Source: a virus
Direction: 5' to 3' (one strand)
DNA length: 64,000 nt
Virus record (IMG/VR): IMGVR_UViG_3300028844_003737
Span: 10,388 to 74,387 of that record
The translations under genes and the position numbers were made by a program. Positions 812 to 40,945 of the stretch are shown one piece after another (position 1 is the first letter of the stretch; each line of letters begins with the position of its first letter). The notes below the pieces were generated by a model. That model saw only the letters and a program-made list of their open reading frames with translations. It made no database searches and was not told where the DNA came from.

Positions 812-1255
812 ATGAAGAACATACTCAAAAACACAAGTAAGGGTTTTACCTTGATTGAATTAGTAATGGTTACAATCATATTGGGAATCTTAGCGGCTGT
901 AGCAATACCTCGTTATCAACAGACTGTAGATAATGCGGAAGAAGCTGCAGAAAAGACATTTGTCGATATGGTATGGGCTGGATGTGAACAAGAAGCTTCT
1001 GAAAGAATAACTGAGACTGGACTTGAGGCATGGCCTTATAATCCACTAACAGTTATTGGTAGAAGTCGTAACATATCAGTTACATTGTTTGAAGGTGTAC
1101 CCGATGAAGATAACGAATGGCAGTTTAGTGTAGATGCGGCTGGTGAACCAGCAATATTTCATCACAGACGAAACGATGAAATCTATTACTACAAGTACGA
1201 TTCATTGACATTTGAGTTGGACGAACTACCTACGCTTTATACAAACGAAGGATAA
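812..1255 (+). CDS. type IV pilin (prepilin N-terminal cleavage/methylation domain)
   Basis: Canonical class III signal KG|FTLIELVMVTIILGILAAVAIPRY. Confidence 0.9.
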   Translation: MKNILKNTSKGFTLIELVMVTIILGILAAVAIPRYQQTVDNAEEAAEKTFVDMVWAGCEQEASERITETGLEAWPYNPLTVIGRSRNISVTLFEGVPDEDNEWQFSVDAAGEPAIFHHRRNDEIYYYKYDSLTFELDELPTLYTNEG

Positions 1256-1305: not shown

Positions 1306-1749
1306 ATGAGATTAAATCTTACAGATGATATTTTAGAACTTGTATTAGGTGGATTAATAATGGTTACTTTAGGGTTCGTATTCTTTAGAAGTGACGAATC
1401 CATTAAAGTACAAAAAGAACCTACTATTGATGACTTTTATGAGTTCCCACTACAAGCGTGGCAGACCACAGACTTACAAGGTGGAGATTGTATAAAGATT
1501 AGATATATGGTTACTAAACCAAAGACTCGTTTGATTATGAAAAGCGCTGATGGAATAAGGGTACATATGCAACCAATATCTTTGAGTCCGAGAAAAGGTG
1601 AAGATAGAATAGAAACTTATGTATGGAAACTATATCGTACAGAATGGACAGATAAAATATCACCAGGTGAATATCTTATAATAGTAGGAACCGACCACGA
1701 TAGGAGACCATCCAAAACAAACTTATCAATAAAGGTAGATGTATTATGA
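1306..1749 (+). CDS. membrane-anchored hypothetical protein (N-terminal TM, beta-rich C-terminus)
   Basis: Hydrophobic LELVLGGLIMVTLGFVFF; RBS GAGG; overlaps next gene (ATGA). Confidence 0.7.
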   Translation: MRLNLTDDILELVLGGLIMVTLGFVFFRSDESIKVQKEPTIDDFYEFPLQAWQTTDLQGGDCIKIRYMVTKPKTRLIMKSADGIRVHMQPISLSPRKGEDRIETYVWKLYRTEWTDKISPGEYLIIVGTDHDRRPSKTNLSIKVDVL

Positions 1750-2360
1750 AAAAAACCTTGACTTCTATATTTTTGATGATAGTGATAGTGAACAATCCAA
1801 TATTTTCACAAGAAATCAAACGGACATCAGAGTTCAAAAGAGATGTTGCATATGGAATAGAATGTGATGATACAGAATACAGAGATTACAAAGGCTCGCC
1901 TGCTTGGAAAGGATATGGTGGATGGATATCCGAATGCGATTCAATTCGTACAACACGATTAAATGCTGAGTTTGCTCTTAGGTCAAAAGAAAGACAAAGA
2001 CAAAAAGCAATTCAAGATAGCATAGATATTGCAACAGCATCTTTTGATGATATAGACTTAGATGTTATGTGGGAAAATACAGTGTGGGAAGAGATTGACG
2101 AAATTACAGAAGTATACGGCGAAGTAGAACAAATAACTGCTGTTGCTGGAGTTCGTGGTGCTGAAGCAGAAGATGAAGCATTGAATCATTTATACTATAG
2201 AAGAAGTATGAAAGGCTTAGCTCTAATAGATTTACAAAAAGCTTATGGCAAGTTATCAATCAAAAGGGAAAATCTTATAAAGATAAATCCAAACCATCCT
2301 AAATTGGAGAAGATAGACAATCTTTTATCTCAATTAAAAATAAAAATGAAAAAAGTATAA
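1746..2360 (+). CDS. secreted hypothetical protein
   Basis: Signal-peptide-like N-terminus MKKTLTSIFLMIVIV; contains TAVAGVRG motif. Confidence 0.65.
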   Translation: MKKTLTSIFLMIVIVNNPIFSQEIKRTSEFKRDVAYGIECDDTEYRDYKGSPAWKGYGGWISECDSIRTTRLNAEFALRSKERQRQKAIQDSIDIATASFDDIDLDVMWENTVWEEIDEITEVYGEVEQITAVAGVRGAEAEDEALNHLYYRRSMKGLALIDLQKAYGKLSIKRENLIKINPNHPKLEKIDNLLSQLKIKMKKV

Positions 2361-2415
2361 AAAAAATGCGTTTTGAGAATTTTACTATATACATATATAT
2401 ATAAAGTTTTTTGAC

Positions 2416-2840
2416 AATTTGAAAATTTGAAAAGTGCAGAGAGTAATTAACTCTGTATGGGATTGGTCGAATAATGAGTATACTTGAAGCTCATAAGACA
2501 ATCTAATGTGAGTTGTGGTGACTTGGAACTCTGCTGAATGTAGTAGAGGTGTAACGGTCCTCATAGACATATGACACATAATGTACTTTCAGAAATAACA
2601 AGATGATTCTTGGACTTTGTTGTGGGTAAGGATAAAACTGAAATCCCACCTTGTGGCTGAATAATTTAGTCTCAGAAGAGATAAGGCAATAGCACAGACA
2701 TTGTAGTCGCTCTAACGTAGAACTAACCATCTATTAGGAGAACCAAAGTAACTTTTGGGTGTTAGGTACAAAGTTATAATAAATTCTGAGCTGAAAGTTG
2801 TAGGTAATCATTAATCCTACATCCCCCTAATTTTCAATTT
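2416..2840 (+). ncRNA. candidate large structured non-coding RNA (~420 nt)
   Basis: No plus-strand ORF; many local hairpins; long-range helices ACTTTCAG 2585-2592/CTGAAAGT 2791-2798, CTCAGAA 2671-2677/TTCTGAG 2784-2790, TTGAAAATT 2419-2427/AATTTTCAA 2829-2837. Confidence 0.7.
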
Positions 2841-2843
2841 TAT

Positions 2844-2915
2844 AAAAAAGGGTTCGATCTGATTTTTAGTTTCCACTATATTACAAACTTAAAAACTTTT
2901 ATGAACCCTTTTTTT
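2844..2915 (+). terminator. long hairpin/intrinsic terminator
   Basis: AAAAAAGGGTTC...GAACCCTTTTTTT with an inner imperfect stem. Confidence 0.65.
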
Positions 2916-2918
2916 GCC

Positions 2919-2948
2919 TTGACTTATATGCGATTTCTTTTGTAAGAT
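2919..2948 (+). promoter_or_regulatory. sigma70-type early promoter, probably giving a leaderless mRNA
   Basis: TTGACT-N18-TAAGAT; ATG at 2954 only 5 nt after the -10 box; no RBS. Confidence 0.55.
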
Positions 2949-2953
2949 CTTAT

Positions 2954-3481
2954 ATGAATAAATGTAAAAAATGTAATGAAACAATGGATAATCACAGAGC
3001 TCATCTTGGTTACTCCGAATGTGTTGAGTGTTCGACAGTAAAGAAATATTCATCGCATACTATATATCCACATAAAACTGGTGGGTATATCCAACCTGTA
3101 TCAGAAGAACAATCAGAAAATCTAAATAGGTTAGATAGAAGAGGTACATCTGGTAATAAACCAGCTAAAGGTATTGTAAAAGATAATAGTTGGGATAGGT
3201 GGTTGAAAGAATACTATGCTCCTAAACCAGAGAAGAAGAAGTTTGTACCTAAGCCTACGACACTACCTATTTATATACCTGTAAAGGAAGCTATGACTAA
3301 GGTGATGGATATGTATGAAAATAGGGGATATGATTCAGCATACGAACTAACACAATCATTGTATACCGATGATAAAATTTCACTTATGACTAAATCAAAG
3401 ATTACTAATGAGATAACTGAGTGGCAATATATGAGTGCTAAACAAAGAAGATGGCAAAAAAAACTGGAAATAAATGCATAA
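2954..3481 (+). CDS. hypothetical protein with N-terminal zinc finger
   Basis: CxxC...CxxC (CKKC/CVEC). Confidence 0.75.
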   Translation: MNKCKKCNETMDNHRAHLGYSECVECSTVKKYSSHTIYPHKTGGYIQPVSEEQSENLNRLDRRGTSGNKPAKGIVKDNSWDRWLKEYYAPKPEKKKFVPKPTTLPIYIPVKEAMTKVMDMYENRGYDSAYELTQSLYTDDKISLMTKSKITNEITEWQYMSAKQRRWQKKLEINA

Positions 3482-3520
3482 AGTCCTTGTTTATTAGCAA
3501 ATTTATTCGTAGCTTTATAT
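3464..3520 (+). promoter_or_regulatory. repeated early promoter
   Basis: CTGGAAATAAATGCATAAAGTCC-TTGTTT-N17-TAGCTT; near-identical copy at 5801, partial copies at 13473 and 17453. Confidence 0.8.
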
Positions 3521-3538
3521 ATAAAGAAAAGGGAAAAG

Positions 3539-5620
3539 ATGAGTAATTCAATAAAACATAATTTCAATCCGATGGCTCTCAGAGAGAAACATTCTGCTGA
3601 AAGTCGTACTAACAGCTATTCTTCTTTTTGGTTAGATAATGGTTGGGACAACAATACTTCTATATTTGACGATGAAGAAACTAAAAAGGGTGTAGATTTA
3701 GTCGCACTGGCTTCTTATCGTAGGGCTATCAGTAATTTCGTTTCTATCGTTACTGGTGAATCAGACATCAAAGTTACTTTCAATACTTCAGGCGATAGTT
3801 ATACTAATGGTAAAGAAGTTACTATCTCTTCTAAATTAGATGACAAACTATTTGACTCAACTGTTGGTCTGGCTTTGCATGAGGGTTCTCATATCAAACT
3901 TTCAGATTTTGATTTTCTAAAACAACTTGATACTAATATTCCAGCTGAGTATTTCAATAGAGGTGAAGCACTTGGAATGGAGAGATATGAAGTAATTGGT
4001 AAACTAAAAAATTTACTAAACTATGTAGAAGATAGAAGAATTGATTATTTTGTCTTTTCAAATTCACCGGGCTACAAAGGTTATTATCATAAGATGTATG
4101 AAAAATACTTTCATGCTAAGGTTATTGATAAGGCTTTAGGTTCTAATGAGTATACTTCAGTTGATTGGGATTCTTATGAATTTCGTATTATCAATCTCAC
4201 TAACAAAAATACTCTTTTGGATGTTCTGCCTGGTTTGAAAGATATCAGAAAAGCTATTTTCAGTAATGTAAAGAATTTAGATTCTACTGCTGAGGCTTTC
4301 GCTGTTGCTCTAAATGTCTTTGATATTATTCTTTCTAACTTAGAAGCCCAACCAAAAGTTGATGGTGGAAAAGGTGATGGCGAAGAGGGTGCTGATGGTT
4401 CTGAAAGTGGTGGTGATGAAAATGATATGGGTTCTAAAGGTGATGGTAATTCTGATGGTGAAGGCGAGTCAATGAGTGGTAAATCTTCAGAAAATCAGCC
4501 TGAGAATTCAAATTCTGATTTATCAGAATTATCAGACAGGCAGAAAAAACAACTTAGTAATGCTGTAAAGAAGCAGAAGAAATTTATGGATGGCGACATC
4601 ACTAAAAAGAAGCTAACTAAAAAAGATAAAGCTTCTATGGATGCTGTTGAATCTGCTGGAATGAAATATGTAGATGTTGCTAGTGGTGTTACAGATAATT
4701 ACTATGGTAAAAAAACTCCTACTAAAGTTTTATTGGTAAAGAAATTTACTAAAGCTCTAGCTGAGTCTGATACCATTCGTATGATTCAAACACCAAACTA
4801 CAGATGGGCTGGTGAAGAAACTAAAGAAGCTATTACTAAAGGTTTGGTAATGGGAACTATGTTAGGTCGTAAACTTCAAGTACGTGGAGAGTCTCGTGAG
4901 ACTAAGTGGTCTAGAAAAGATTCAGGCCGTATCGATAAGAGATTGATTGCTGAGTTAGGTTTTGGTAACCAGAGAGTTTTTCATACTTCATTTGTAGAAC
5001 AATATTCAGATGCTTTTCTTCACATCTCAGTTGATGCTAGTGGTTCGATGGGTGGAAAGAAGTGGGTAAATACTCAGACTTGTGTTGCTGCCATCGCTAA
5101 AGCTTGTTCAATGATTTCAAATGTTGATTGTGTAATTTCTTACAGAAGTACGCAGGATACTGGAAACTACAGACGTGGTGGTAAGAATTTCCCACTAATG
5201 ATGATTGCTTATGATTCTCGTGTTGATAAAATCAATAAAATCAAAAATCTATTTCCATTACTTCGTCCGAGTGGAACTACTCCTGAAGGATTGTGTTTTG
5301 AAGCGATTATGAAGGAAATTGAACCGGCATCTAAGGATAAGGATTCATACTTCCTAAACTTATCAGATGGAATGCCTATGTTTTCTAATGATGATATTGA
5401 CTATAACTATGATACGGCAATCAATCACACTAAGAGTATGGTAAATGAGATTCGTAATCGTGGTGTAAAAGTTCTTAGTTACTTCATTGGAGATAGTTAT
5501 GATAGGGATAGAAGTACTTCTACTTTCAAAAAGATGTATGGCTCAGATGCTGAGTTCATCAATGTGACTTCAGTACTTCCGGTTGCTAAAACAATGAATA
5601 AAAAGTTCTTACAAAAATAA
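3539..5620 (+). CDS. CobT-like metallopeptidase + VWA domain protein (MoxR partner)
   Basis: ALHEGSH (HExxH), NYVEDRRI, acidic Gly-rich linker, MIDAS DASGSM, GTTP, SDGMP. Confidence 0.85.
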   Translation: MSNSIKHNFNPMALREKHSAESRTNSYSSFWLDNGWDNNTSIFDDEETKKGVDLVALASYRRAISNFVSIVTGESDIKVTFNTSGDSYTNGKEVTISSKLDDKLFDSTVGLALHEGSHIKLSDFDFLKQLDTNIPAEYFNRGEALGMERYEVIGKLKNLLNYVEDRRIDYFVFSNSPGYKGYYHKMYEKYFHAKVIDKALGSNEYTSVDWDSYEFRIINLTNKNTLLDVLPGLKDIRKAIFSNVKNLDSTAEAFAVALNVFDIILSNLEAQPKVDGGKGDGEEGADGSESGGDENDMGSKGDGNSDGEGESMSGKSSENQPENSNSDLSELSDRQKKQLSNAVKKQKKFMDGDITKKKLTKKDKASMDAVESAGMKYVDVASGVTDNYYGKKTPTKVLLVKKFTKALAESDTIRMIQTPNYRWAGEETKEAITKGLVMGTMLGRKLQVRGESRETKWSRKDSGRIDKRLIAELGFGNQRVFHTSFVEQYSDAFLHISVDASGSMGGKKWVNTQTCVAAIAKACSMISNVDCVISYRSTQDTGNYRRGGKNFPLMMIAYDSRVDKINKIKNLFPLLRPSGTTPEGLCFEAIMKEIEPASKDKDSYFLNLSDGMPMFSNDDIDYNYDTAINHTKSMVNEIRNRGVKVLSYFIGDSYDRDRSTSTFKKMYGSDAEFINVTSVLPVAKTMNKKFLQK

Positions 5621-30712: not shown

Positions 30713-32668
30713 ATGCCATATACAGCACCAAAAAATAATTCAATAAAAGAAGTAAAGTATCTAAATAAAGATTTTAGTTCTCTAAAATCAAATTTGATAG
30801 AATTTGCTAAGGTTTATTTTCCAAATAGTTATAATGATTTTAATGAATCTTCACCAGGAATGATGTTTATAGAAATGGCTTCATATGTGGGAGATGTTCT
30901 ATCCTATTATGTAGATAACCAATTCAAAGAAAGTTTACTAGCATATGCAGAAGAAAAAAAGACAGTATACAATATGGCTCAAGCATTGGGATACAAACCC
31001 AAACAAGCTTCACCAGCTTCTGTAGTATTAGATATATTCCAAACAGTGCCAGCAAAGTCAAGTGGTACAGGTGCTAACTTTACTACTTCTCCTGATTTAT
31101 CATATGCTCTAAATATAAAAAGTAATATGAAAGTTCAGTCAGCATCTGGTATTTCATTTTCATCTACTGAAGATTGTAACTTCAAATTTTCTTCTTCATA
31201 CGACCCAATGAGTATTAGTATTTTTGAAACTGCTGGTAATGTACCAGTAAATTATTTATTGAGAAAATCTGTTAGAGCAAAGAGTGGTCAGGTAACTACA
31301 GAATATATTACTGTAGGGAGTGCTGAAAAGTATAAAAGAATTGCTTTAGCTAATGCTGATGTTACTGAGATTATTTCTTGTGTAGACAGCGATAATAATA
31401 GTTGGTATGAAGTTCCATTTTTAGCACAAGATACAGTATTTACAGATGCTGAAAATACAACAGCATCAGATCCTGATTTAGCATCCCAATCAGACCAATC
31501 TCCGTATTTACTAAAATTATTAAAAACATCAAGAAGATTTACAACATATATAATGGAAAATGGTAGAACTGAAATCAGATTTGGTGCTGGTATATCAGAT
31601 AGTCCTGATGAAGAGATTATACCTAATCCTGATTCGGTTGGCTCTTCGTTGCCAGGCTCACCATCACAATTAGGAAATGCTTTTGATCCATCAAACTTTT
31701 TAAAGACTAAAGCATATGGTCAAGCACCATCAAATACTACTTTACAAATTACTTATAGATATGGTGGTGGTATAAGTAGTAATGTTGCTTCAAATACAAT
31801 AACCACTGTACAAAAAATAGATGTAGCTATTGACACAAATGGATTATCAGCTCCCTTATTGTCACAAACAAGAAACTCTGTGGGGATTACAAATCCTCAA
31901 CCTGCTACAGGAGGTAGGTCTGCTGAAAGCGTAACTGAAGTTAAAAATAACGCACTAGCATACTTTCAGGCACAATCAAGAGCTGTAACTAAAGAAGATT
32001 ATATAACAAGAGTATATGCTATACCACCTAAATATGGTAATATAGCTAAAGCATATATCGTACAAGACAGTCAATTAGATACTGTAGATACAGGTGCTAA
32101 TTCTGATAGTAGAATTATAAATCCATTGGCACTAAATTTATATGTATTAGGATATAATTCTATAAAAAAACTAACTAATCTGAATCAGGCAGTAAAGGAA
32201 AATATACAAACTTACCTAACTCAGTTTAGGATGGTAACGGATGCTGTAAATATAAAAGATGCTTTTGTAATCAATATAGCAGTAAAATTTAATATTATAA
32301 CTAAAGTCGGATATAATGGAGAAGAAGTATTGCTAAGAGCAATACAGGTAGTAAGAAGTTTTTTCAATATTGATAACTGGCAAATCGGACAACCTATAAT
32401 TTTATCTGATTTAGCTTATAAAATCTCACTTACGGATGGAGTATCAGCAGTCGTTCCTCCTGAAGAAAATAATCCTAACGGATTACCAATATTACTTACT
32501 AATAAATTTTTGAGTTCTGATGGGTATTCAGGAAATATGTATGATATAGCATCTGCTACTAAAGACGGAGTTGTCTATCCATCTATGGATCCAAGTTGTT
32601 TTGAATTGAAGTTTCCAGCAACAGATGTAGAAGGAAGAGTAGTCGGTTCTTCATCAGGAGATAACTAA
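30713..32668 (+). CDS. baseplate wedge subunit, gp6/J-like
   Basis: DFSSLKSNLIEF..Y.DFNESS..MFIEM..YVGD; IRFG.G; ATGGRSAES; QSRAVTKEDY. Confidence 0.9.
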   Translation: MPYTAPKNNSIKEVKYLNKDFSSLKSNLIEFAKVYFPNSYNDFNESSPGMMFIEMASYVGDVLSYYVDNQFKESLLAYAEEKKTVYNMAQALGYKPKQASPASVVLDIFQTVPAKSSGTGANFTTSPDLSYALNIKSNMKVQSASGISFSSTEDCNFKFSSSYDPMSISIFETAGNVPVNYLLRKSVRAKSGQVTTEYITVGSAEKYKRIALANADVTEIISCVDSDNNSWYEVPFLAQDTVFTDAENTTASDPDLASQSDQSPYLLKLLKTSRRFTTYIMENGRTEIRFGAGISDSPDEEIIPNPDSVGSSLPGSPSQLGNAFDPSNFLKTKAYGQAPSNTTLQITYRYGGGISSNVASNTITTVQKIDVAIDTNGLSAPLLSQTRNSVGITNPQPATGGRSAESVTEVKNNALAYFQAQSRAVTKEDYITRVYAIPPKYGNIAKAYIVQDSQLDTVDTGANSDSRIINPLALNLYVLGYNSIKKLTNLNQAVKENIQTYLTQFRMVTDAVNIKDAFVINIAVKFNIITKVGYNGEEVLLRAIQVVRSFFNIDNWQIGQPIILSDLAYKISLTDGVSAVVPPEENNPNGLPILLTNKFLSSDGYSGNMYDIASATKDGVVYPSMDPSCFELKFPATDVEGRVVGSSSGDN

Positions 32669-33791: not shown

Positions 33792-34106
33792 ATGCCATAT
33801 ACAAAAGAGCAGCTTCAGAAAAATGAGTATTACCAAAATCTCAAAGATGCTGATGAACAAGCGTATTTAGCACAAAGAGAATATTATAAAACTCAATTTT
33901 ATGATAGTCCAGAATTTGGTTCTAACGATGGAAGTTTAGTTGTAAGAGATACAAATGGAACTATGTTATTATTTGAAGATCCTTATAGTGGTGTATTATA
34001 TGATGACGAAACTACAGTAATAGTAAAAAATCTCAGTACACCACAATATAGAATAAATGATGAAATATTAGATGAAGTAATAGATAGAGATATAACGGAA
34101 TTATAA
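33792..34106 (+). CDS. hypothetical structural protein
   Basis: ORF coupled to both neighbours. Confidence 0.7.
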   Translation: MPYTKEQLQKNEYYQNLKDADEQAYLAQREYYKTQFYDSPEFGSNDGSLVVRDTNGTMLLFEDPYSGVLYDDETTVIVKNLSTPQYRINDEILDEVIDRDITEL

Positions 34107-37100
34107 TGTCAAGTAAACTAACAAATATAGATAAGCAATTACTAGATGCTGGTAATGAAATTCGTATAGGTAATAAGCCTTATGAAAATGGAATTTTTGG
34201 ATCAAATCCAAATAGAGATACTATTGAACTTACTATATTCAATACAAGCGGAGGACTTATAGATTCTATCACTAAATCTTTTAGTGATATACAATTTGAT
34301 AACGATGATAAATTATTACTAAGGCCGGTTGCTGATTTAACTTTAGCTGGATTAGAATCTGGAACATATGATTTACAATATAGATTTCTTAGAAAGTTAG
34401 CAGGTAGTGAAGATGATGTGCTAGTTCGTACTGTTCCTAATGAACAAGGAAAATTTGATATTTTTGAAGATGTTGAATCAATAGATATAACAGATGATGG
34501 TAAAATATTTGAAAAAATAGGTAGTGACAGAGGACAAGAACTACAGCTAAAGAAGATGACTCTATTAGTGGATGCTGTCTCACCATCAAGAACAGAAATA
34601 CGGATAAAGGCTTCAGATGTAAATGGAAGAGGTAATTTTGAAGATTTTTCTAGATTAGGAGAATCTGTACGGAGAACAGAAGTTCCAACTGGCATAGTTC
34701 AATTTGGTACTGGTGGTGATGAAAATTTCATTACAAATACAAATGTTATGACTCTTACTCCTGAAGATGGTGGGTTTATATTTACACCTCGTATGGTAGG
34801 TGGTACTCTTTATGTAAAAGATGTATACCATACTTCGACTATAACTACTACTCCAACTACTGAAAATAATATAGTAACAGATCAAGAACAACTAAGAAAA
34901 GATGATTACGGCGAAGTTATAAAATATGGAGAATCTTTACCTTGGGATAGCAACTTACACGCAAACGCAGTAAGACCATTAGGCGATTGGAGTGCAGGAT
35001 ATTTACAATGGTATGCTAACAGTGAATTATGGGGCAACTCAACTCATTTAGGGTATTGGGGACATTGGGTTCAAGGAGAAGGTCGTGATGGTGGTGTATG
35101 TTTTAAATTTCCTGATATAAATCAATCTTTTGCTGAGGACTTTACTGCGTGGCCATTAGAAAATCCACATAGAGGTTTGATGTTATCTCATACCTTTAAA
35201 GATAAAAGTTTAGAGGTATTGGGTGTAACAGGCGAAGATAGTATTTTGATATCAGGATACATAAAGTCTAATGTCAATAATAAACAAATAAGAATTACAA
35301 CTAAGTTCCCACAAGATTTATTATCTGAAGCGGAACCTGATAGCCCGCCAGAAGGATTTTTTGTAGAGGGTAGTCCTTTATTAGAAGAAAAGCCATCATC
35401 TCCTCCTGATAATTACAATCCCCTAACAATTGAAGCAGCTCAGTCAATAGAAAATGTTCCAGCTATAGCTATAATGGAAAATGGATATTCGACTGGAATG
35501 AATATTACAGCGTTTTTAAATGCGAGGGAAGGTTACGGGTGGAGTGTTGGACAGACGCCTAATGTTGCTACTGGTAATGACAGTACCCAACTAAATCGTA
35601 AGTCTCCACCAAGACCAGCCACTTATGGAACAGGAGTTTGGAAACTTCATATAGAAACAGACCAATCAGAAGCCGTAATTAGTTTAGAACTCAATCACTC
35701 TTGGGGTGATGCAAACGGATACAGTAACGGTGCTGGTACACTTAGTGAAGGTGGAGATTGGAAATGGGACGGAGAACAATGGACTGGATACCCAATAGCT
35801 ACTGAAGTAGAACCTATAGTTGGTCATGATTCTAATGGTGGGGTATATAGAACTGTAAATCCAAACCAATTTCCTACGGCTGTAAATGCACACCCTTACA
35901 GACAAAGCGAAGAATTAGTTCAGACTAGAAGGCCGTTATTTGAAAGGTCTTTACCATCATCTACTGGATTTGAGTATGGGTGTACGATAGGAAAGGCATT
36001 TTATGCGTGGTTATTAGATGGACGTTGGGAAGTAAATAGTACCATTATTAACAGAGGAGATATTTCTGTTAAATATGTTATGCTTGGTAAACAAGACTTA
36101 ATTTGGATAACAAAAGTTAATCAATCAAGCTCAGATAAAGTATTACTTCGTACGTGGGATGAAGTATTTCCTCAATTGAGAACAAGCTATATAGATAGAG
36201 AAGTCGATGGTGAAACTAAACAAGTAAGTATTTATGAAGATATATTTGAATTTGGATTTGTACAAAGTATAGTACCGGCACAGCATAGAAATAAAAATGT
36301 TACTGTAATGGGCAGTTTTCATATATTCTATAATGATGGAAATGGAAATAATAAATCTTTTAGAGTTGATACGTTTAGATCTGGTACGAATACAATTAGC
36401 TCAACACTTTCTAATAATACTATTTATCCAAACATAGGAAGTGATAGAGTATATAATATACGCGATTTAGATGAACCATTTGATAATACTATAAATGATA
36501 ATGATTCTAAGGTAAAGTGGACTGTAAATAGGGACGATGGAGATTTTAGATTTTATGCTTTCGTAGGAAACCAATATTACAGAGTCGATGATGGAGATGG
36601 AGATCTTTACGAAATAAATGAGAGTGATTCTAATTGGTTTAAAGATGACTATCCAAGAACAATAAATGAAGATGGCTTTGAAGATTTTATTCAAAATCCT
36701 GATGTTGTATTTGAAAGAGATTTAACACCAAATGAAAGCGATTGGACAAAATGGGGTATTATAAAAGGTAGCCAATACTATAAACAAGAAGATGATAAGC
36801 ATGTACTGATATCTACCTTTGATGAAGCCTTTATAGGAGCTGGTACAGTACAGAGTGGTGGTGAAGAACTTGTAGTTGGTACTAGAAATCCTGGAAAAGA
36901 TAATTGGTTATTAGATGATGAAGGTAATACTTTACCTAATGTACCATATATTGATAATGGAAGTGGAAATTTAATAATCGGAATGACATCCGATAGAATT
37001 GGTACGGTAAGTCCTGAAGAACAATGGATTTGGACAGGACCAGATGATGCTAGTTCCGTACACTATTGGAAATATTCAGGTCCTATGCCACCACAATATA

Positions 37101-40100
37101 GTTTTGCCAGACCAACAAGCGGTGATTATGCTAAATTCATAGAAAATGTAACAGCAAATGAATGGGAAAGGTTTGAAGTTGCTGTACCTGTTCATCCTAA
37201 TTGGAGATTGGGTGTTCCTGGATGGCAAGTTGTCTTTGAAGGAAATATAGGATCTAAACCTGGCATAGTATGGATGGATGATATTGATGTTAGATTTAGG
37301 TTGGATAGTCAATCTGTTGATCAATTAGTAAAAAAGCCATTTGTTGCTCAAATAAGTTCTGTAAATGAAACTGGAACACTGGTGGAATTAGATAAAACTT
37401 TTGAGGATGGAGCAATTGAAGTTAGCGATGATGATGATCCAGCAAATGCTTATTATCAAGATGGTGCTCAAGCAGGATCTTATACTGGATTTGAAGTAAC
37501 ATATACTATATTCAATCCAAGAGAACTTAGAACTTATTTGAAATTTGGAAACAATCATTATCTAACAACAAACTTTAGACAAGATAGAGCATCAGTTATA
37601 AAATGGCCACATTCTATAAATTTTAAAACTTACGAACCTTTACCACCAAGTATACAAAAGTTTTCCGAAGTTACAGTTGTAAAGGAAATGATTGAGCCAC
37701 TATCCGAAACCGTTAGAATTGTAAATTTTACAGACAGTCCTCTTGGAGATAGACTACTAAAGAGTCCTGATTTGAACAATGTAGACAGTCCTTTACAAAG
37801 AAGAACTACACAATTCAAAAATGAATCAGAAATTCTAACATCGGATTCAATAGTTTCAGCTGAACTTAAAAACAAAATAGTTTCTGCTAGTACAGATAGT
37901 GCTGAAATAAATGTTGACTACAGCAGATATGAAAATTTTAATAATTTTGGTTCCGTTGAGAGAAGAATTGAAAACTTCAAATATAAATTAGAACTAATTG
38001 AAAGTTATAACGCATCAAGTGCGTCTTTAGTTTCTATTTCAGGTTCTGGCGATAATAGAGATTTGTGGTTACAAAGAACAAATGAACTAAAAAATGACTT
38101 TGATGGATTTGAAAATTATATGTATCATATTAGTTCATCATATGTTAGCAGTTCATTGGGGCAATTTTATGATAATGCGTGGCCGAAAGTTAGTGGTGCT
38201 GGAACTTTAACAAGTCCATATGTATTAGCACACACTACTTCTTCACAAGCAACTACTTGGTTTGAAAAAAATGTAGTTTCGGCATCTTTATTCGATGAAG
38301 AGAATGGTAATAAATTAAGTGGGTTGTTACCACAGCATATAATTGACGATAACAGCAACACAGATTATCTAAAATTTACTGATATGATAGCACATCATTT
38401 TGATAATATATGGATTTACATAAAAGGATTGAGTGACACTTTTGATAGAAGAGATAAATTAGATGAAGGACTTTCTAAAGATTTATTATATAGTGTAGGT
38501 AGGTCTTTGGGATGGAATTTAAATGATAGTTCGGATACAGTTGAGTTATCCAGATTTCATTCAGGACACGAAGTATCAGGTTCAAGTTTATCTGTTTACT
38601 CTGAGGTTTCTCAGAAAGATATAACAAGAGAAATTTGGGGTCGTATAATAAACAACATGCCTTTCTTTCTAAAAAATAAAGGTACTGTAAAAGCATTGAA
38701 AGGACTCATAAATATTTATGGTATACCATCAACAATATTGAGAGTAAAGGAATATGGGGGTCCCGCTATATCAGATGATGAAGCACCACAATTTGAGATA
38801 ACAAGAAAATTTACAAAAGCATTAGATTTTAGGTCAAGTCAATTTGTAAAAGTAGCTTGGGCAAATGATACTGATTCGGAAAGAAAGCCTGATACTATAG
38901 AGTTTAGATTTAGAGCAGTCAGTAGTTCTAATCAAGTATTGGTAGAAAAGATAGGTAGTGACTTTACATCTAGCTTCAACATTAGTTTAAAAGATAATAA
39001 TTCCGCTGACAATTATGGTTATGTCGCATTTACCCTATCAGGCTCAGATGGTCAAAAACAGGTTCAAAGTGGTGAACTTCCTATATATGATGGAGATTTT
39101 TATTCTGTGATGTTGAGGAGAACTTCAGGCTCAGATTCAGCTGAGGTAACTCAATCATTTCAATTATCTGTTGGTAAATATGATTCTAGTAGAAGTAAGA
39201 TACATCTGTTTTCTGCAGCTACTATGTCTACAGATATTGCTGATTCAGGATCTTATAATCTTGCTTATGCTAATAATGGTACAATATTTATCGGTGGTGC
39301 TTCAAACACTACAAGAGGAGCTGCTTCTCAGACTGGCTCTTTTGGTGGTCAACTATCAGGTTCTATGATGGAGTATAGACATTGGACTGAAACATTGGGT
39401 GTAAAACAATTCAAAAATCATGTGGCTAATCCACAAGCATATAATGGAAATACTATATCATCATCATATGATAATTTAGTTTTGAGATACTCAATGAATG
39501 ATAACAAAGATTTGAGTTCTGATACTGGTGGGATTAGAGATGTAAGTTCAAATCAAACAGCAACATTGTCAGGATCACATAGTGGATTTACTGGTAACTT
39601 TTTCAGTAATGTTGTTGATGAATTACAATCTCATATACCAAGTATAGGTGCTTTGAGAAGAACTACTAAGAAAATACGAATAGAATCAAATAATATAAAA
39701 GATGGTCAGATTTTACAGAGAACTAAAAGAGTTACTAATAGTCAATATGATACAGCAGCTAATGACTCTAATAAATTAGGTATATTTTTTGCTCCTACTG
39801 ATGTTATAAATAATGATATTATACAATCTGTGGGTGATTTGAATTTTGAAAATTACTTAGGAGACCCAAGAGATAGGTTAGAAAATAGCTACAGAGGTCT
39901 AAAAGGTGTTGCTGATAATTACTGGCAAAAATACACCGAACCAAATAATTTTTGGGACTATATTAGATTACTGAAATACTACGATTCTTCTTTATTTCCA
40001 CAACTTAGAAAACTAATTCCTGCTAGAGCAAAAGCTGATATTGGAATATTAATTGAGCCAAATATATTTGAAAGGTCTAAGGTTGTAGCAGGAAAAGAAC

Positions 40101-40945
40101 CTGTAGTCACACAAGAAAATTATAGAGGTACGATAGATGTCAGTACAGACTTTATAGCTATAACATCATCTTATAATGCGGGTGTTAGTGTTAGTACATT
40201 TGATGCTTATTCAGATACTATCAGTATATCAAGAACAACTGAGTCAGGATCTATAATAACTGCTACTGGTTCATATGATACATACAATGGTACAATCGAT
40301 GAACTAAAAGCGAGAAATTTTGATATAAGTATTTTTCAAAAATTAGGTAATGTTGGATTATATTCTAATGTAACTATGTCTCTTGAATCCGACACTTTGA
40401 ATGGAGTAGTAGAAGTTCATCAGCCTGTTATTTCAGGATCAAGAATATATGGAAGAAATCAAAAGCAAATGAAATTCTATACCACCGAAGCTAGTCATTC
40501 ACTAAACTTGTTTAACTCTTCTTCTTTCTATAATGTAGACTTAGATAATTTAGCAGACCATTCACAAGCCAAACTAAATTCTTTTTATTCTGGCGTAAAG
40601 AATACTTCAAAGACTACAATCGATGGTGGAAGACCAGTTGAAATTACAATAACATCTCCAACTAAACTTGTCACACAAGAAAGTGGAGAATCTACTTTGG
40701 AAACTGGTGATGGTAAGGTATCTAACTTCAAATTCAAAGATAAGAAAAAGAAGAAAAAAATCAAGAAAGTAAGTAAGAAAGGATTCCTTGCTAGTGGTAT
40801 GCCTGATGTAAAGGAAATTGAAAAACAGAGAAAAATGTTTTCAAAGCCTAAGGATAGATTTGTTGAGGTGAAAGGCGAATCATCAAAGAATATATCTAAG
40901 AAAAAAGATGATGAAATACAGAGAGATGAGGAAAATGAGAAATAA
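34106..40945 (+). CDS. large baseplate/tail structural protein (2279 aa; gp7-like core, LamG-like domain)
   Basis: FFLKNKGTVKALKGLINIYG wedge-type motif; TIEFRFR...EYRHW LamG-like pattern; context. Confidence 0.75.
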   Translation: MSSKLTNIDKQLLDAGNEIRIGNKPYENGIFGSNPNRDTIELTIFNTSGGLIDSITKSFSDIQFDNDDKLLLRPVADLTLAGLESGTYDLQYRFLRKLAGSEDDVLVRTVPNEQGKFDIFEDVESIDITDDGKIFEKIGSDRGQELQLKKMTLLVDAVSPSRTEIRIKASDVNGRGNFEDFSRLGESVRRTEVPTGIVQFGTGGDENFITNTNVMTLTPEDGGFIFTPRMVGGTLYVKDVYHTSTITTTPTTENNIVTDQEQLRKDDYGEVIKYGESLPWDSNLHANAVRPLGDWSAGYLQWYANSELWGNSTHLGYWGHWVQGEGRDGGVCFKFPDINQSFAEDFTAWPLENPHRGLMLSHTFKDKSLEVLGVTGEDSILISGYIKSNVNNKQIRITTKFPQDLLSEAEPDSPPEGFFVEGSPLLEEKPSSPPDNYNPLTIEAAQSIENVPAIAIMENGYSTGMNITAFLNAREGYGWSVGQTPNVATGNDSTQLNRKSPPRPATYGTGVWKLHIETDQSEAVISLELNHSWGDANGYSNGAGTLSEGGDWKWDGEQWTGYPIATEVEPIVGHDSNGGVYRTVNPNQFPTAVNAHPYRQSEELVQTRRPLFERSLPSSTGFEYGCTIGKAFYAWLLDGRWEVNSTIINRGDISVKYVMLGKQDLIWITKVNQSSSDKVLLRTWDEVFPQLRTSYIDREVDGETKQVSIYEDIFEFGFVQSIVPAQHRNKNVTVMGSFHIFYNDGNGNNKSFRVDTFRSGTNTISSTLSNNTIYPNIGSDRVYNIRDLDEPFDNTINDNDSKVKWTVNRDDGDFRFYAFVGNQYYRVDDGDGDLYEINESDSNWFKDDYPRTINEDGFEDFIQNPDVVFERDLTPNESDWTKWGIIKGSQYYKQEDDKHVLISTFDEAFIGAGTVQSGGEELVVGTRNPGKDNWLLDDEGNTLPNVPYIDNGSGNLIIGMTSDRIGTVSPEEQWIWTGPDDASSVHYWKYSGPMPPQYSFARPTSGDYAKFIENVTANEWERFEVAVPVHPNWRLGVPGWQVVFEGNIGSKPGIVWMDDIDVRFRLDSQSVDQLVKKPFVAQISSVNETGTLVELDKTFEDGAIEVSDDDDPANAYYQDGAQAGSYTGFEVTYTIFNPRELRTYLKFGNNHYLTTNFRQDRASVIKWPHSINFKTYEPLPPSIQKFSEVTVVKEMIEPLSETVRIVNFTDSPLGDRLLKSPDLNNVDSPLQRRTTQFKNESEILTSDSIVSAELKNKIVSASTDSAEINVDYSRYENFNNFGSVERRIENFKYKLELIESYNASSASLVSISGSGDNRDLWLQRTNELKNDFDGFENYMYHISSSYVSSSLGQFYDNAWPKVSGAGTLTSPYVLAHTTSSQATTWFEKNVVSASLFDEENGNKLSGLLPQHIIDDNSNTDYLKFTDMIAHHFDNIWIYIKGLSDTFDRRDKLDEGLSKDLLYSVGRSLGWNLNDSSDTVELSRFHSGHEVSGSSLSVYSEVSQKDITREIWGRIINNMPFFLKNKGTVKALKGLINIYGIPSTILRVKEYGGPAISDDEAPQFEITRKFTKALDFRSSQFVKVAWANDTDSERKPDTIEFRFRAVSSSNQVLVEKIGSDFTSSFNISLKDNNSADNYGYVAFTLSGSDGQKQVQSGELPIYDGDFYSVMLRRTSGSDSAEVTQSFQLSVGKYDSSRSKIHLFSAATMSTDIADSGSYNLAYANNGTIFIGGASNTTRGAASQTGSFGGQLSGSMMEYRHWTETLGVKQFKNHVANPQAYNGNTISSSYDNLVLRYSMNDNKDLSSDTGGIRDVSSNQTATLSGSHSGFTGNFFSNVVDELQSHIPSIGALRRTTKKIRIESNNIKDGQILQRTKRVTNSQYDTAANDSNKLGIFFAPTDVINNDIIQSVGDLNFENYLGDPRDRLENSYRGLKGVADNYWQKYTEPNNFWDYIRLLKYYDSSLFPQLRKLIPARAKADIGILIEPNIFERSKVVAGKEPVVTQENYRGTIDVSTDFIAITSSYNAGVSVSTFDAYSDTISISRTTESGSIITATGSYDTYNGTIDELKARNFDISIFQKLGNVGLYSNVTMSLESDTLNGVVEVHQPVISGSRIYGRNQKQMKFYTTEASHSLNLFNSSSFYNVDLDNLADHSQAKLNSFYSGVKNTSKTTIDGGRPVEITITSPTKLVTQESGESTLETGDGKVSNFKFKDKKKKKKIKKVSKKGFLASGMPDVKEIEKQRKMFSKPKDRFVEVKGESSKNISKKKDDEIQRDEENEK

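What the first reader, a model, noticed from the sequence alone, without database searches (positions are those of the whole stretch)
2416..2915. Large, ornately paired non-coding RNA candidate with a probable pseudoknot
Seen: about 420 nt with no plus-strand ORF in an otherwise gene-dense genome. The 5' and 3' ends pair (2419-2427/2829-2837). Hairpins lie at 2435-2457, 2461-2503, 2599-2612, 2622-2649 and 2799-2821. Two long-range helices have abutting 3' strands (2585-2592/2791-2798 and 2671-2677/2784-2790). ACTTTGT near 2615 can pair with ACAAAGT at 2768, crossing the latter helix. A boxA-like TTTTTGACAAT precedes it and a terminator follows. RNase P, tmRNA and tRNA signatures are absent. 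Known: phages carry large ncRNAs of unknown function (GOLLD, ROOL). Inference: this is a member of such a class or a new one.
Basis: partly seen in the sequence, partly recalled or inferred. Interest (0 to 1): 0.85.

Follow-up and report, generated by a model that had tools for sequence, protein, structure and literature searches.

The report
Nested two-core manA phage RNA
The gene-free stretch encodes a real, elaborately folded and expressed phage RNA of about 430 bases. It is an enlarged, two-core form of the known "manA" RNA, which a 2026 preprint reports to build RNA-only cages, and not a new class.

Summary
Window 2408-2845 is a conserved structured RNA followed by an intrinsic terminator (2850-2915).

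- **Structure.** More than 90 distinct relatives occur in uncultured marine phage contigs. On 61 distinct copies, 98.7% of pair cells are standard pairs, against about 40% in slid controls, and 61 of 94 pairs show compensatory changes.
- **Family.** The RNA is not unclassified. Rfam manA (RF01745) matches 2621-2825 at 69.3 bits (cut-off 55.2). The 5' domain searched alone again gives manA as best family, but weakly (E 0.08). I read it as a second manA-like core nested inside helix P8 of an outer one.
- **Loop contacts.** The loops at 2603-2608 and 2806-2811 covary as a kissing pair.
- **Independent gene.** The terminator is conserved, no antiterminator was found, and downstream genes vary. RNA-library contigs of three studies lie only on 2424-2843.
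- **Function (inferred).** Most likely an RNA-RNA assembly scaffold like classical manA, not a riboswitch.

This scan reported the nested or fused double manA form earlier on other genomes. It is absent from Rfam and from the papers I could search.

The parts
2373..2407 (+). Candidate promoter: TTGAGA at 2373-2378, then a TATA-rich stretch ending about 2405. The transcription start was not determined.
   Evidence: Relatives share a TTTGRGA...TATATATA(A/T)AT element upstream. Many carry an extra small covarying hairpin between it and UUUUUGACAAU. A strict sigma-70 rule fits only 37 of 89 loci. This part is inferred.
2408..2433 (+). 5' leader UUUUUGACAAU plus the 5' strand of the terminal helix (2419-2427)
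   Evidence: UUUGA(C/A)AAU is nearly invariant. A duplex with 2829-2837 forms in every relative.
2434..2458 (+). Outer-core P1 hairpin (H1)
   Evidence: Three of 8 pairs are compensatory and 100% of cells are paired. It aligns to manA P1. The loop is usually AGUAAUUAA but varies in copies found through a 3' anchor.
2459..2463 (+). GGGAU, 5' strand of the outer closing helix P2; pairs with AUCCC at 2821-2825
   Evidence: Both strands are invariant, also when the other strand was the search anchor. It corresponds to GGGAG/CUCCC of classical manA. There is no covariation. A rival pairing is GAUU 2461-2464 with AAUC 2500-2503.
2466..2499 (+). Outer-core P3: GUC/GAC helix, GAAUAA, hairpin 2474-2494, AUAAG
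   Evidence: Helices 3 and 4 have 6 compensatory pairs. The motifs align to manA UGaCUGAAUAA...UAAgG.
2506..2579 (+). Outer-core P4 junction: P5 (2512-2523, loop GUGGUG 2515-2520), a variable P6, and P7 (2561-2574, GACA loop)
   Evidence: Helices 5-7 have 13 of 14 pairs compensatory. The GUGGUG loop is invariant in copies found through either anchor and is identical to the classical manA L5 loop.
2585..2592 (+). 5' strand of outer P8 (pairs with 2791-2798). P8 encloses the L8 hairpin and the inner core.
   Evidence: Six of 8 pairs are compensatory.
2599..2612 (+). L8 hairpin; loop AUGAUU at 2603-2608 kisses the P9 loop AAUCAU at 2806-2811
   Evidence: The two variable loop positions occur in five pairings, all complementary. 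Sixty-seven of 87 copies give a perfect 6-bp duplex. Eighteen have one mismatch at a third position. Two break the rule. Columns 2603/2811 and 2604/2810 came out of an unbiased scan.
2615..2773 (+). Inner manA-like core:
- closing helix 2615-2619/2769-2773;
- hairpin 2622-2649;
- UGGCUGAAUAA;
- P3' 2656-2687, whose inner hairpin loop carries CUCAG;
- P4' 2690-2764 with P5' 2697-2708, P6' 2710-2740 (loop UAACCA 2724-2729) and P7' 2743-2758 (GUAA loop)
   Evidence: Rfam manA scores 69.3 bits over 2621-2825. Helices 9-18 are nearly all compensatory. The UAACCA loop is invariant.
2671..2675 (+). Pseudoknot 5' strand CUCAG, in the loop of the P3' hairpin; pairs with CUGAG at 2786-2790
   Evidence: Four covarying haplotypes occur and the rare departures are alignment shifts. 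The helix crosses 2615-2619/2769-2773.
2786..2798 (+). Pseudoknot 3' strand (2786-2790) and 3' strand of outer P8 (2791-2798)
2800..2820 (+). Outer-core P9 hairpin with the conserved loop GUAAUCAUUAAUC
   Evidence: Two pairs are compensatory (AU 27, GC 25, UA 9). It aligns to manA P9. The loop covaries with L8.
2821..2845 (+). AUCCC (3' strand of P2), the 3' strand of the terminal helix (2829-2837) and an A run
2850..2915 (+). Long intrinsic terminator hairpin (GGGUUC/GAACCC outer stem, conserved inner A/U stem) followed by a T run
   Evidence: A hairpin plus T run follows the RNA in 77 of 92 distinct loci. The outer stem is fully compensatory across loci (GGGUUC, AUGGUCA, GCCCCA, GUGAGCC and others). 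No antiterminator-like 6-mer occurs in the last 150 nt of the RNA.
2919..2948 (+). Separate promoter-like site (TTGACT-N18-TAAGAT) of the downstream ORF 2954-3481
   Evidence: It is not part of the RNA; it marks the next transcription unit.

Best explanation
**Shown**
- Window about 2408-2845 is an independent phage gene for a highly structured, conserved and expressed non-coding RNA. It ends at its own intrinsic terminator (2850-2915).

**Shown in part**
- It is a two-core member of the manA family.
- The outer core keeps manA elements P1, P2 (GGGAU/AUCCC), P3 (GAAUAA...AUAAG), a P4 junction whose L5 loop is GUGGUG, P8 and P9.
- Helix P8 (2585-2592/2791-2798) is opened. It carries a small L8 hairpin and a second manA-like core (2615-2773).
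- The inner core is locked to the outer one by a pseudoknot (2671-2675/2786-2790).

**Inferred**
- The RNA works through RNA-RNA loop contacts, as the 2026 cryo-EM preprint reports for classical manA RNAs. Those RNAs form pentamer-based decamers and a 60-mer cage through L5-L7' and L8-L9' kissing loops.
- The whole molecule keeps one copy of each of those four loop types, spread over the two cores: GUGGUG in the outer core, UAACCA in the inner core, and L8 and L9.
- It therefore most likely folds or assembles into a higher-order RNA-only particle during infection. It probably does not sense a metabolite to control the gene downstream.
- Whether the loop contacts form within one molecule or between molecules, and what the particle does for the phage, is not known.
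For: **Structure**
- 91 RNAalifold pairs, 59 of them compensatory.
- On 61 distinct sequences, 98.7% of cells are paired, against 82% in shuffles and 32-43% in slid controls. 61 of 94 pairs are compensatory. The covariation score is 0.516 against about 0.08.

**Family**
- manA scores 69.3 bits (cut-off 55.2) at 2621-2825.
- With 2428-2600 searched alone, manA is the best of 4227 families and aligns P1, GGGA, GAAUAA, UAAG, the GUGGUG loop, P7 and the start of P8.
- A sequence profile of 106 classical manA copies hits the same 5' stretch weakly.

**Both domains always together**
- All 64 copies found through a 5' anchor carry both domains.
- So do 31 of 34 copies found through a 3' anchor.

**Loop contacts**
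- L8 and L9 covary in five complementary combinations; 85 of 87 copies fit the rule.
- The same contact covaries in classical manA.
- GUGGUG and UAACCA are invariant.

**Published mechanism for the family**
- bioRxiv 10.64898/2026.07.01.735769.

**Independent gene**
- A terminator follows in 77 of 92 loci, with no antiterminator.
- The downstream gene varies: gp32-like SSB in 40 of 55, also HSP20, a zinc-finger ORF and others.
- The next ORF has its own promoter-like site.

**Expression**
- Contigs of RNA libraries from three studies lie only on 2424-2843, not on the flanking genes.
- One 382-nt insert, flanked by adapter sequence on both sides, spans both cores.
Against: - The 5' core match to manA is statistically weak (E 0.08, 14.5 bits, far below the cut-off). 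The two-core reading rests on element-by-element correspondence.
- P2 (GGGAU/AUCCC) and the GUGGUG and UAACCA loops never vary, so covariation cannot test them. GAUU could instead extend the P3 helix.
- Covariation of L8 and L9 cannot tell a contact within one molecule from one between molecules.
- Assembly was shown only in vitro, for RNAs under 200 nt, in a preprint. Nothing was measured for this RNA.
- I derived the loop numbering (L5, L7, L8, L9) from the Rfam consensus and did not check it against the preprint's figures.
- The RNA evidence comes from assembled contigs, which give no ends, strand or level. A fourth RNA run covers the flanks too.
- Most relatives place the RNA about 200 nt upstream of the SSB gene, so read-through regulation is not excluded.
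Confidence: 0.55

Rival explanations
1. It is a cis-acting riboswitch or leader, as manA was first proposed to be. The folded RNA senses a metabolite or protein and controls read-through of the terminator into the downstream gene, which is the SSB gene in most relatives.
For: - Rfam and Weinberg et al. 2010 class manA as a cis-regulatory riboswitch candidate.
- Classical copies mostly lie 5-60 nt before an ORF.
- 40 of 55 relatives have a gp32-like SSB gene about 200 nt downstream on the same strand.
- HSP20 follows in two loci, a gene class named for manA in 2010.
Against: - No sequence able to compete with the terminator stem occurs in 77 of 77 loci, although the stem sequence changes freely.
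- The downstream gene is replaced in several lineages, including this window, while the RNA and terminator are kept.
- The next ORF has its own promoter-like site.
- RNA-library contigs of three studies stop before the terminator and do not cover the next gene.
- No ligand has been found since 2010.
Confidence: 0.12
2. It is a single diverged manA domain (2621-2825) fused to an unrelated, undescribed 5' domain (2434-2612). The likeness of the 5' domain to manA is convergent or due to chance.
For: - Only the 3' half reaches the Rfam cut-off.
- The 5' half scores 14.5 bits, E 0.08.
- Sequence-only profile hits have E 0.02-0.06.
Against: - The 5' half reproduces, in order, P1, GGGA, UG, a short helix, GAAUAA, a hairpin, AUAAG, a three-hairpin junction whose first loop is exactly GUGGUG, and a GNRA-capped last hairpin. 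Each helix is supported by covariation.
- P9 and AUCCC, which the Rfam alignment gives to the 3' domain, close the 5' domain topologically.
- manA is the top family out of 4227 for the 5' half alone.
Confidence: 0.15
3. It is a monomeric trans-acting RNA, for example a decoy or sponge for a host or phage protein, or a ribozyme. All the loop contacts are intramolecular tertiary contacts.
For: - It has the closed architecture of stable ncRNAs: paired ends, a pseudoknot and two loop-loop contacts.
- It appears abundant in RNA libraries.
- In a two-core molecule the GUGGUG and UAACCA loops could meet in cis.
Against: - The homologous loops make intermolecular contacts in the solved classical manA assemblies.
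- No protein partner or catalytic motif is indicated by anything tested.
Confidence: 0.15
4. It is a member of the GOLLD or ROOL families or a wholly new class of large phage RNA.
For: It has a similar size class and phage origin and is ornately folded. Those RNAs also form RNA-only multimers.
Against: - No Rfam match to GOLLD, ROOL or any other large RNA appears, even at E up to 10.
- A significant manA match is present.
Confidence: 0.02
5. The stretch encodes a small protein on the minus strand (ORFs 2385-2579 or 2503-2730).
For: ORFs of 64 and 75 aa exist in the window.
Against: - The homologous segments are open in only 6 of 63 and 1 of 63 relatives.
- Lengths differ by non-multiples of three in 33 and 51 of 63.
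- The substitution pattern keeps base pairs, not codons.
Confidence: 0.01

Closest known systems
manA RNA motif (Rfam RF01745; Weinberg et al. 2010, PMC2864571; cryo-EM assemblies in bioRxiv 10.64898/2026.07.01.735769)
   Same: - It passes the Rfam cut-off.
- It shares P1, the P2 closing helix, the UG-RYY-GAAUAA / hairpin / UAAG module, the three-hairpin junction, the GUGGUG and ACCA loops, a P8-loop to P9-loop complementarity that covaries, and the P9 loop GGUA...AAUCC.
- It comes from marine phages.
   Different: - It is about 430 nt against about 195 nt.
- It scores 69 bits against 150-197 for classical copies.
- It has two cores, one nested in P8 of the other, plus an extra pseudoknot and a terminal helix joining the 5' and 3' ends.
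- GUGGUG and ACCA sit in different cores.
- The L8/L9 sequences differ (xxGAUU/AAUCyy against CUGUA/UACAG).
- It has its own terminator and lies 127-200 nt from the next ORF, not 5-60 nt.
ROOL and GOLLD large phage or prophage RNAs
   Same: They are large, ornate, phage-borne, stand-alone ncRNAs. Their families form RNA-only multimers or cages.
   Different: There is no sequence or structure match. The architecture is different and the size is smaller.
Tandem or fused riboswitch aptamers (for example tandem glycine aptamers). This is named from general knowledge and was not tested here.
   Same: Two homologous structured cores sit in one transcript and contact each other.
   Different: Here one core is nested inside a helix of the other rather than placed side by side. 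No expression platform or ligand is evident.

Membership tests
manA RNA (RF01745) | Covariance-model score at or above the curated gathering score | tested here: met
   69.3 bits against 55.2, E 1.5e-15, model 1-192 on 2621-2825. Classical copies score 150-197 bits.
manA RNA (RF01745) | P1 hairpin immediately followed by the closing helix GGGAG/CUCCC | tested here: met
   The Rfam alignment of the 3' half deletes this helix. H1 (2434-2458) is followed directly by GGGAU (2459-2463), which pairs with AUCCC (2821-2825) in 61 of 61 distinct copies. It aligns to model positions 1-22. The helix is invariant, so covariation gives no support.
manA RNA (RF01745) | UGaCUGAAUAA junction, P3 hairpin, UAAgG | tested here: met
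   Present twice: UGGUCGAAUAA...AUAAGAC (2464-2499) and UGGCUGAAUAA...AUAAGGC (2654-2687). The flanking short helices covary.
manA RNA (RF01745) | P4 junction bearing three hairpins P5-P7, with L5 GUGGUG and an ACCA loop | tested here: met
   Two junctions (2506-2579 and 2690-2764) are both strongly covarying. GUGGUG occurs only in the outer one and UAACCA only in the inner one (on P6', not P7'). Both loops are invariant.
manA RNA (RF01745) | Long P8 hairpin whose loop is complementary to the P9 loop | tested here: inconclusive
   There is no simple P8 hairpin; the Rfam alignment marks this region as unpaired. In its place, helix 2585-2592/2791-2798 encloses a small hairpin whose loop covaries with the P9 loop, together with the inner core. 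The feature is met only in a rebuilt form.
manA RNA (RF01745) | P9 hairpin with GGUA...AAUCC loop before the 3' strand of P2 | tested here: met
   2800-2820. The stem covaries and it aligns to model 158-182.
manA RNA (RF01745) | 5'-UTR position directly upstream of an ORF (the basis of the cis-regulatory label) | tested here: not met
   A terminator follows the RNA and the next ORF starts 127 nt after AUCCC, with its own promoter-like site. Classical copies mostly lie 5-60 nt before an ORF.
manA RNA (RF01745) | Homo-oligomeric closed assemblies built from pentamers (preprint, in vitro) | not testable with these tools
   Only the conservation and covariation of the corresponding loops could be examined.
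GOLLD / ROOL | Match to the family covariance model | tested here: not met
   No match at gathering score over the 64-kb window, nor at E up to 10 over 2300-3000.
Transcription-terminating riboswitch | Expression platform: a segment that can pair alternatively with the terminator stem | tested here: not met
   None of 77 loci with a terminator has a 6-mer in the last 150 nt of the RNA identical to the terminator's 3' strand.
Transcription-terminating riboswitch | Specific ligand binding | not testable with these tools
   No ligand is known for manA.

The most novel reading that the evidence does not exclude
The RNA is a natural nested dimer of the cage-forming manA module. After duplication, the four kissing loops of one protomer were shared out between two interlocked cores. 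The roughly 430-nt unit then still assembles head to tail into a larger RNA-only ring or cage inside infected marine bacteria, as an abundant, separately transcribed phage product. The covariation of L8 and L9 would then be evolutionary evidence that manA self-assembly matters in nature and is not an in vitro curiosity.
Probability: 0.3. Interest if true: 0.85.

Novelty: new variant of a known kind. Interest (0 to 1): 0.62.

Why it matters
manA was an orphan riboswitch candidate for 15 years. A 2026 preprint now reports that it forms RNA-only decamers and a 60-mer icosahedral cage in vitro. No biological context was given, and the work covered only RNAs under 200 nt.

This locus adds four things:
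- The family includes a widespread two-core form that is a gene of its own, with promoter-like element and terminator.
- The RNA is present in ocean RNA libraries.
- It belongs to large uncultured marine myoviruses, not T4-like cyanophages.
- The loop pairs that make intermolecular contacts in the cages are kept by compensatory evolution.

This gives direct material for testing whether RNA cages form and act during phage infection. It also shows that Rfam's manA model and its cis-regulatory label miss half of such genes.

Tried and rejected
**Searches that found nothing**
- blastn of the RNA and megablast of the first 12 kb against 50,697 phage records gave no match.
- Pfam and PHROGs on the neighbouring genes gave little: a pilin motif, a MoxR ATPase and a baseplate wedge protein.
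- The two nearest cultured phages (Microcystis phage Mel-JY01 and Flavobacterium phage immuto, 40-50% aa identity) have only about 110 nt before their SSB gene. Neither has a manA match anywhere.
- The 5' motif occurs in only one of 185,579 species genomes. That hit is at the end of a 195-kb contig of a MAG, and the copy is cut by the contig end. The manA search of that genome found nothing.

**Ideas I dropped**
- *A sigma-70 promoter using TTGACA of the leader as the -35.* No -10 lies at the right distance. The generic scan gave no more sites than shuffles. A stricter family-wide rule fits only 37 of 89 loci.
- *A palindromic H1 loop (UAAUUA) as a self-kissing site.* Its invariance came from my search pattern, and it varies in copies found through a 3' anchor.
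- *tRNA adjacency of classical manA.* It holds in only a few loci.

**Weak or noisy tests**
- The single-sequence fold has a z-score of only -2.07, which is weak on its own.
- The scan for further tertiary pairs was dominated by G-U noise and yielded only the L8-L9 pair.
- The test of cognate against non-cognate terminal-helix energies gave only a modest difference.

**Coverage gaps**
- The gaps in RNA-run coverage outside 2424-2843 come from assembled contigs. I treat them as a weak hint only.

Full report
**1. What is there**

The interval 2361-2953 has no plus-strand ORF of 30 aa or more. It lies between ORF 1746-2360 and ORF 2954-3481 in a 74-kb IMG/VR phage record estimated about 40% complete. 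All large ORFs of the window are on the plus strand.

The single-sequence fold is only mildly better than shuffles (z -2.07). The case therefore rests on comparison with relatives.

**2. Known family match**

Rfam finds manA (RF01745) at 2621-2825 with 69.3 bits, against a gathering score of 55.2. The match is imperfect:
- the closing helix GGGAG/CUCCC is deleted;
- the long P8 hairpin is marked as unpaired.

Classical manA copies fetched from IMG/VR score 150-197 bits and are about 195 nt long. No GOLLD, ROOL or other large-RNA model matches, even at E up to 10.

**3. Homologues**

- Loci fetched through the flanking proteins contained six full-length copies at 75-90% identity over 2399-2915.
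- A scan with a 5'-domain motif gave 75 loci and 64 distinct copies. All carry both the 5' domain and the manA-like 3' domain.
- To remove the bias of that anchor, I scanned with a 3' motif. Of 34 further loci with enough upstream DNA, 31 have strong full-length homology, 2 a weaker full-length match, and 1 only a short 3' match.
- The motif is almost absent from cellular genomes. There is one hit, at the end of a 195-kb MAG contig.
- Cultured phages lack it.

**4. Structure**

RNAalifold on 64 copies predicts 91 pairs, 59 with compensatory changes. I added the pseudoknot and counted on 61 distinct rows:

| Measure | Structure | Shuffles | Slid controls |
|---|---|---|---|
| Cells forming a standard pair | 98.7% | 82.1% | 32-43% |
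| Pairs compensatory (of 94) | 61 | 47.5 | 12-20 |
| Covariation score | 0.516 | 0.194 | about 0.08 |

- H1 2434-2458;
- H2 2466-2499;
- the small hairpin 2599-2612;
- 2622-2649;
- 2800-2820;
- long-range helices 2585-2592/2791-2798 and 2615-2619/2769-2773;
- 2671-2675/2786-2790.

The last helix occurs in four covarying forms (CUCAG/CUGAG, CUUGG/CCAAG, CUCUG/CAGAG, CUUAG/CUAAG). It crosses 2615/2769, so it is a true pseudoknot.

The terminal helix 2419-2427/2829-2837 is complementary in all copies but A/U-rich. Its statistical support is modest.

The minus-strand ORFs are not conserved.

**5. Two cores**

Before looking at earlier notes I had mapped the following:
- H1 plus AUGGGAUUG corresponds to classical P1 plus AUGGGAGUG;
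- AUCCC (2821-2825) corresponds to the 3' strand of the classical closing helix.

Earlier reports of this scan on other genomes describe a nested or fused double manA. I tested that reading here.

With 2428-2600 searched alone, manA is the best of 4227 Rfam families (E 0.081, 14.5 bits, model positions 1-139). The alignment places the following in order:
- P1;
- GGGA;
- UG, then GUC, then GAAUAA;
- a hairpin;
- AUAAGAC;
- a junction whose first hairpin has the loop GUGGUG;
- a last hairpin;
- the start of P8.

These are exactly the helices that covariation supports. A sequence profile of 106 classical copies hits the same 5' stretch weakly.

The score is far below the cut-off, so this is correspondence and not proof.

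On this reading:
- the outer core is 2434-2592 plus 2791-2825;
- its P8 helix encloses a small hairpin (2599-2612) and an inner core (2615-2773);
- the inner core holds UGGCUGAAUAA, UAAGG and its own three-hairpin junction.

The Rfam hit threads through the inner core and then the outer P9.

**6. Loop contacts**

An unbiased scan of column pairs singled out 2603/2811 and 2604/2810.

Anchored counting shows that the L8 loop (xxGAUU, 2603-2608) and the P9 loop (AAUCyy, 2806-2811) pair as follows:
- ACGAUU/AAUCGU;
- AUGAUU/AAUCAU;
- GCGAUU/AAUCGC;
- UUGAUU/AUUCAA;
- GAGAUU/AAUCUC.

Eighty-five of 87 copies fit the rule.

In classical manA the P8 and P9 loops are likewise complementary and covary (CUGUA/UACAG against AUGUA/UACAU).

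GUGGUG (2515-2520, outer core) and UAACCA (2724-2729, inner core) are invariant in copies found through either anchor. They are the sequences of the classical L5 and L7 loops.

The preprint 10.64898/2026.07.01.735769 reports that manA RNAs form pentamer-based decamers and a 60-mer icosahedral cage. These are held by intermolecular L5-L7' and L8-L9' kissing loops.

I derived the loop numbering from the Rfam consensus; the figures are not held.

The two-core RNA keeps exactly one loop of each of the four kinds, split between the cores. That fits either contacts in cis or head-to-tail assembly. Sequence data cannot decide between them.

**7. A gene of its own**

- A long hairpin with a T run follows the RNA in 77 of 92 distinct loci. 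Its G+C outer stem changes with full compensation, and no antiterminator-like segment exists.
- The downstream gene is a gp32-like SSB (PF08804) in 40 of 55 loci. Elsewhere it is HSP20, a 526-675-aa ORF or, as in this window, a zinc-finger-like ORF.
- ORF 2954 has its own TTGACT-N18-TAAGAT site.
- Upstream, relatives share a TTTGRGA...TATATATA element. They often have an extra 5' hairpin before the invariant UUUUUGACAAU. The start site is not established.

**8. Expression**

The stretch is held by 20 public runs, six of them RNA libraries.

I laid four RNA runs on 1500-4000:
- The contigs of three studies lie only in the bins 2424-2843.
- One 420-nt contig covers 2440-2821 with adapter sequence at both ends. 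Both cores therefore sit on one molecule.
- The fourth run covers the flanks too.

Contigs give no ends, strand or level, so this is a hint of a discrete, abundant RNA and not a measurement.

**9. Verdict**

- right that this is a large ornate stand-alone phage RNA;
- wrong that no known signature is present.

It is a new variant of a known kind, a nested two-core manA RNA. It is absent from Rfam as such and from the papers I could search. This scan has noted it before on other genomes.

The mechanism I commit to is RNA-RNA assembly through conserved kissing loops, not metabolite sensing. I give it moderate confidence.

The phage's nearest cultured relatives are Microcystis phage Mel-JY01 and Flavobacterium phage immuto. 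The host of this phage is unknown.

Noticed in passing
L013:4560-4745 and the same stretch of about 40 related loci (alignment): Between the RNA's terminator and the gp32-like SSB start codon lie a conserved hairpin (UAUCAAGGUUAUACUUGAUUA) and a long A/U-rich tract with repeated AAAUGA/AAAUAA before the GGAG ribosome site. From general knowledge, the layout recalls the autoregulatory leader of T4 gene 32 (a structured element plus an unstructured A/U-rich operator).
   Followed up: no
window 2860-2899 and relatives: The inner part of the terminator hairpin (GAUUUUUAGUUUCCAC...AAACUUAAAAA) is conserved in sequence across loci whose outer stem differs completely. A second lineage (L047, L048, L060, L089, L094, L103) has a different hairpin. 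The conserved inner part may have a role beyond termination.
   Followed up: partly
L089:1122-1206, L105, L060, L103, L115 (3' tail in alignment A2): Some copies carry an extra 30-85-nt insert between the AUCCCC end and the terminator (UUUGGAAAGUAUCCUUACAG...). This may be a further peripheral hairpin.
   Followed up: no
L122, L161, L140, L160, L164: Classical manA copies in cyanophage-like contigs lie within a few hundred bases of glutamine riboswitches (RF01739) and tRNA genes. One tRNA starts 8 nt after manA.
   Followed up: partly
window 812-1255: A phage ORF carries a prokaryotic N-terminal methylation (type IV pilin) motif, in a run of exported proteins just upstream of the RNA. First-stage notes on this genome mention this too.
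   Followed up: no
window 34106-40945 and 49566-60362: Two very large ORFs of 2279 and 3598 aa lie on the plus strand, downstream of the baseplate wedge gene (30713-32668).
   Followed up: no
L240 (JACKCF010000005.1, 194,906 bp): The only cellular-genome hit for the RNA's 5' motif is at the end of a 195-kb contig of an Anaerolineaceae MAG. The contig's size matches the expected full genome of these phages, so it may be a mis-binned phage genome.
   Followed up: no
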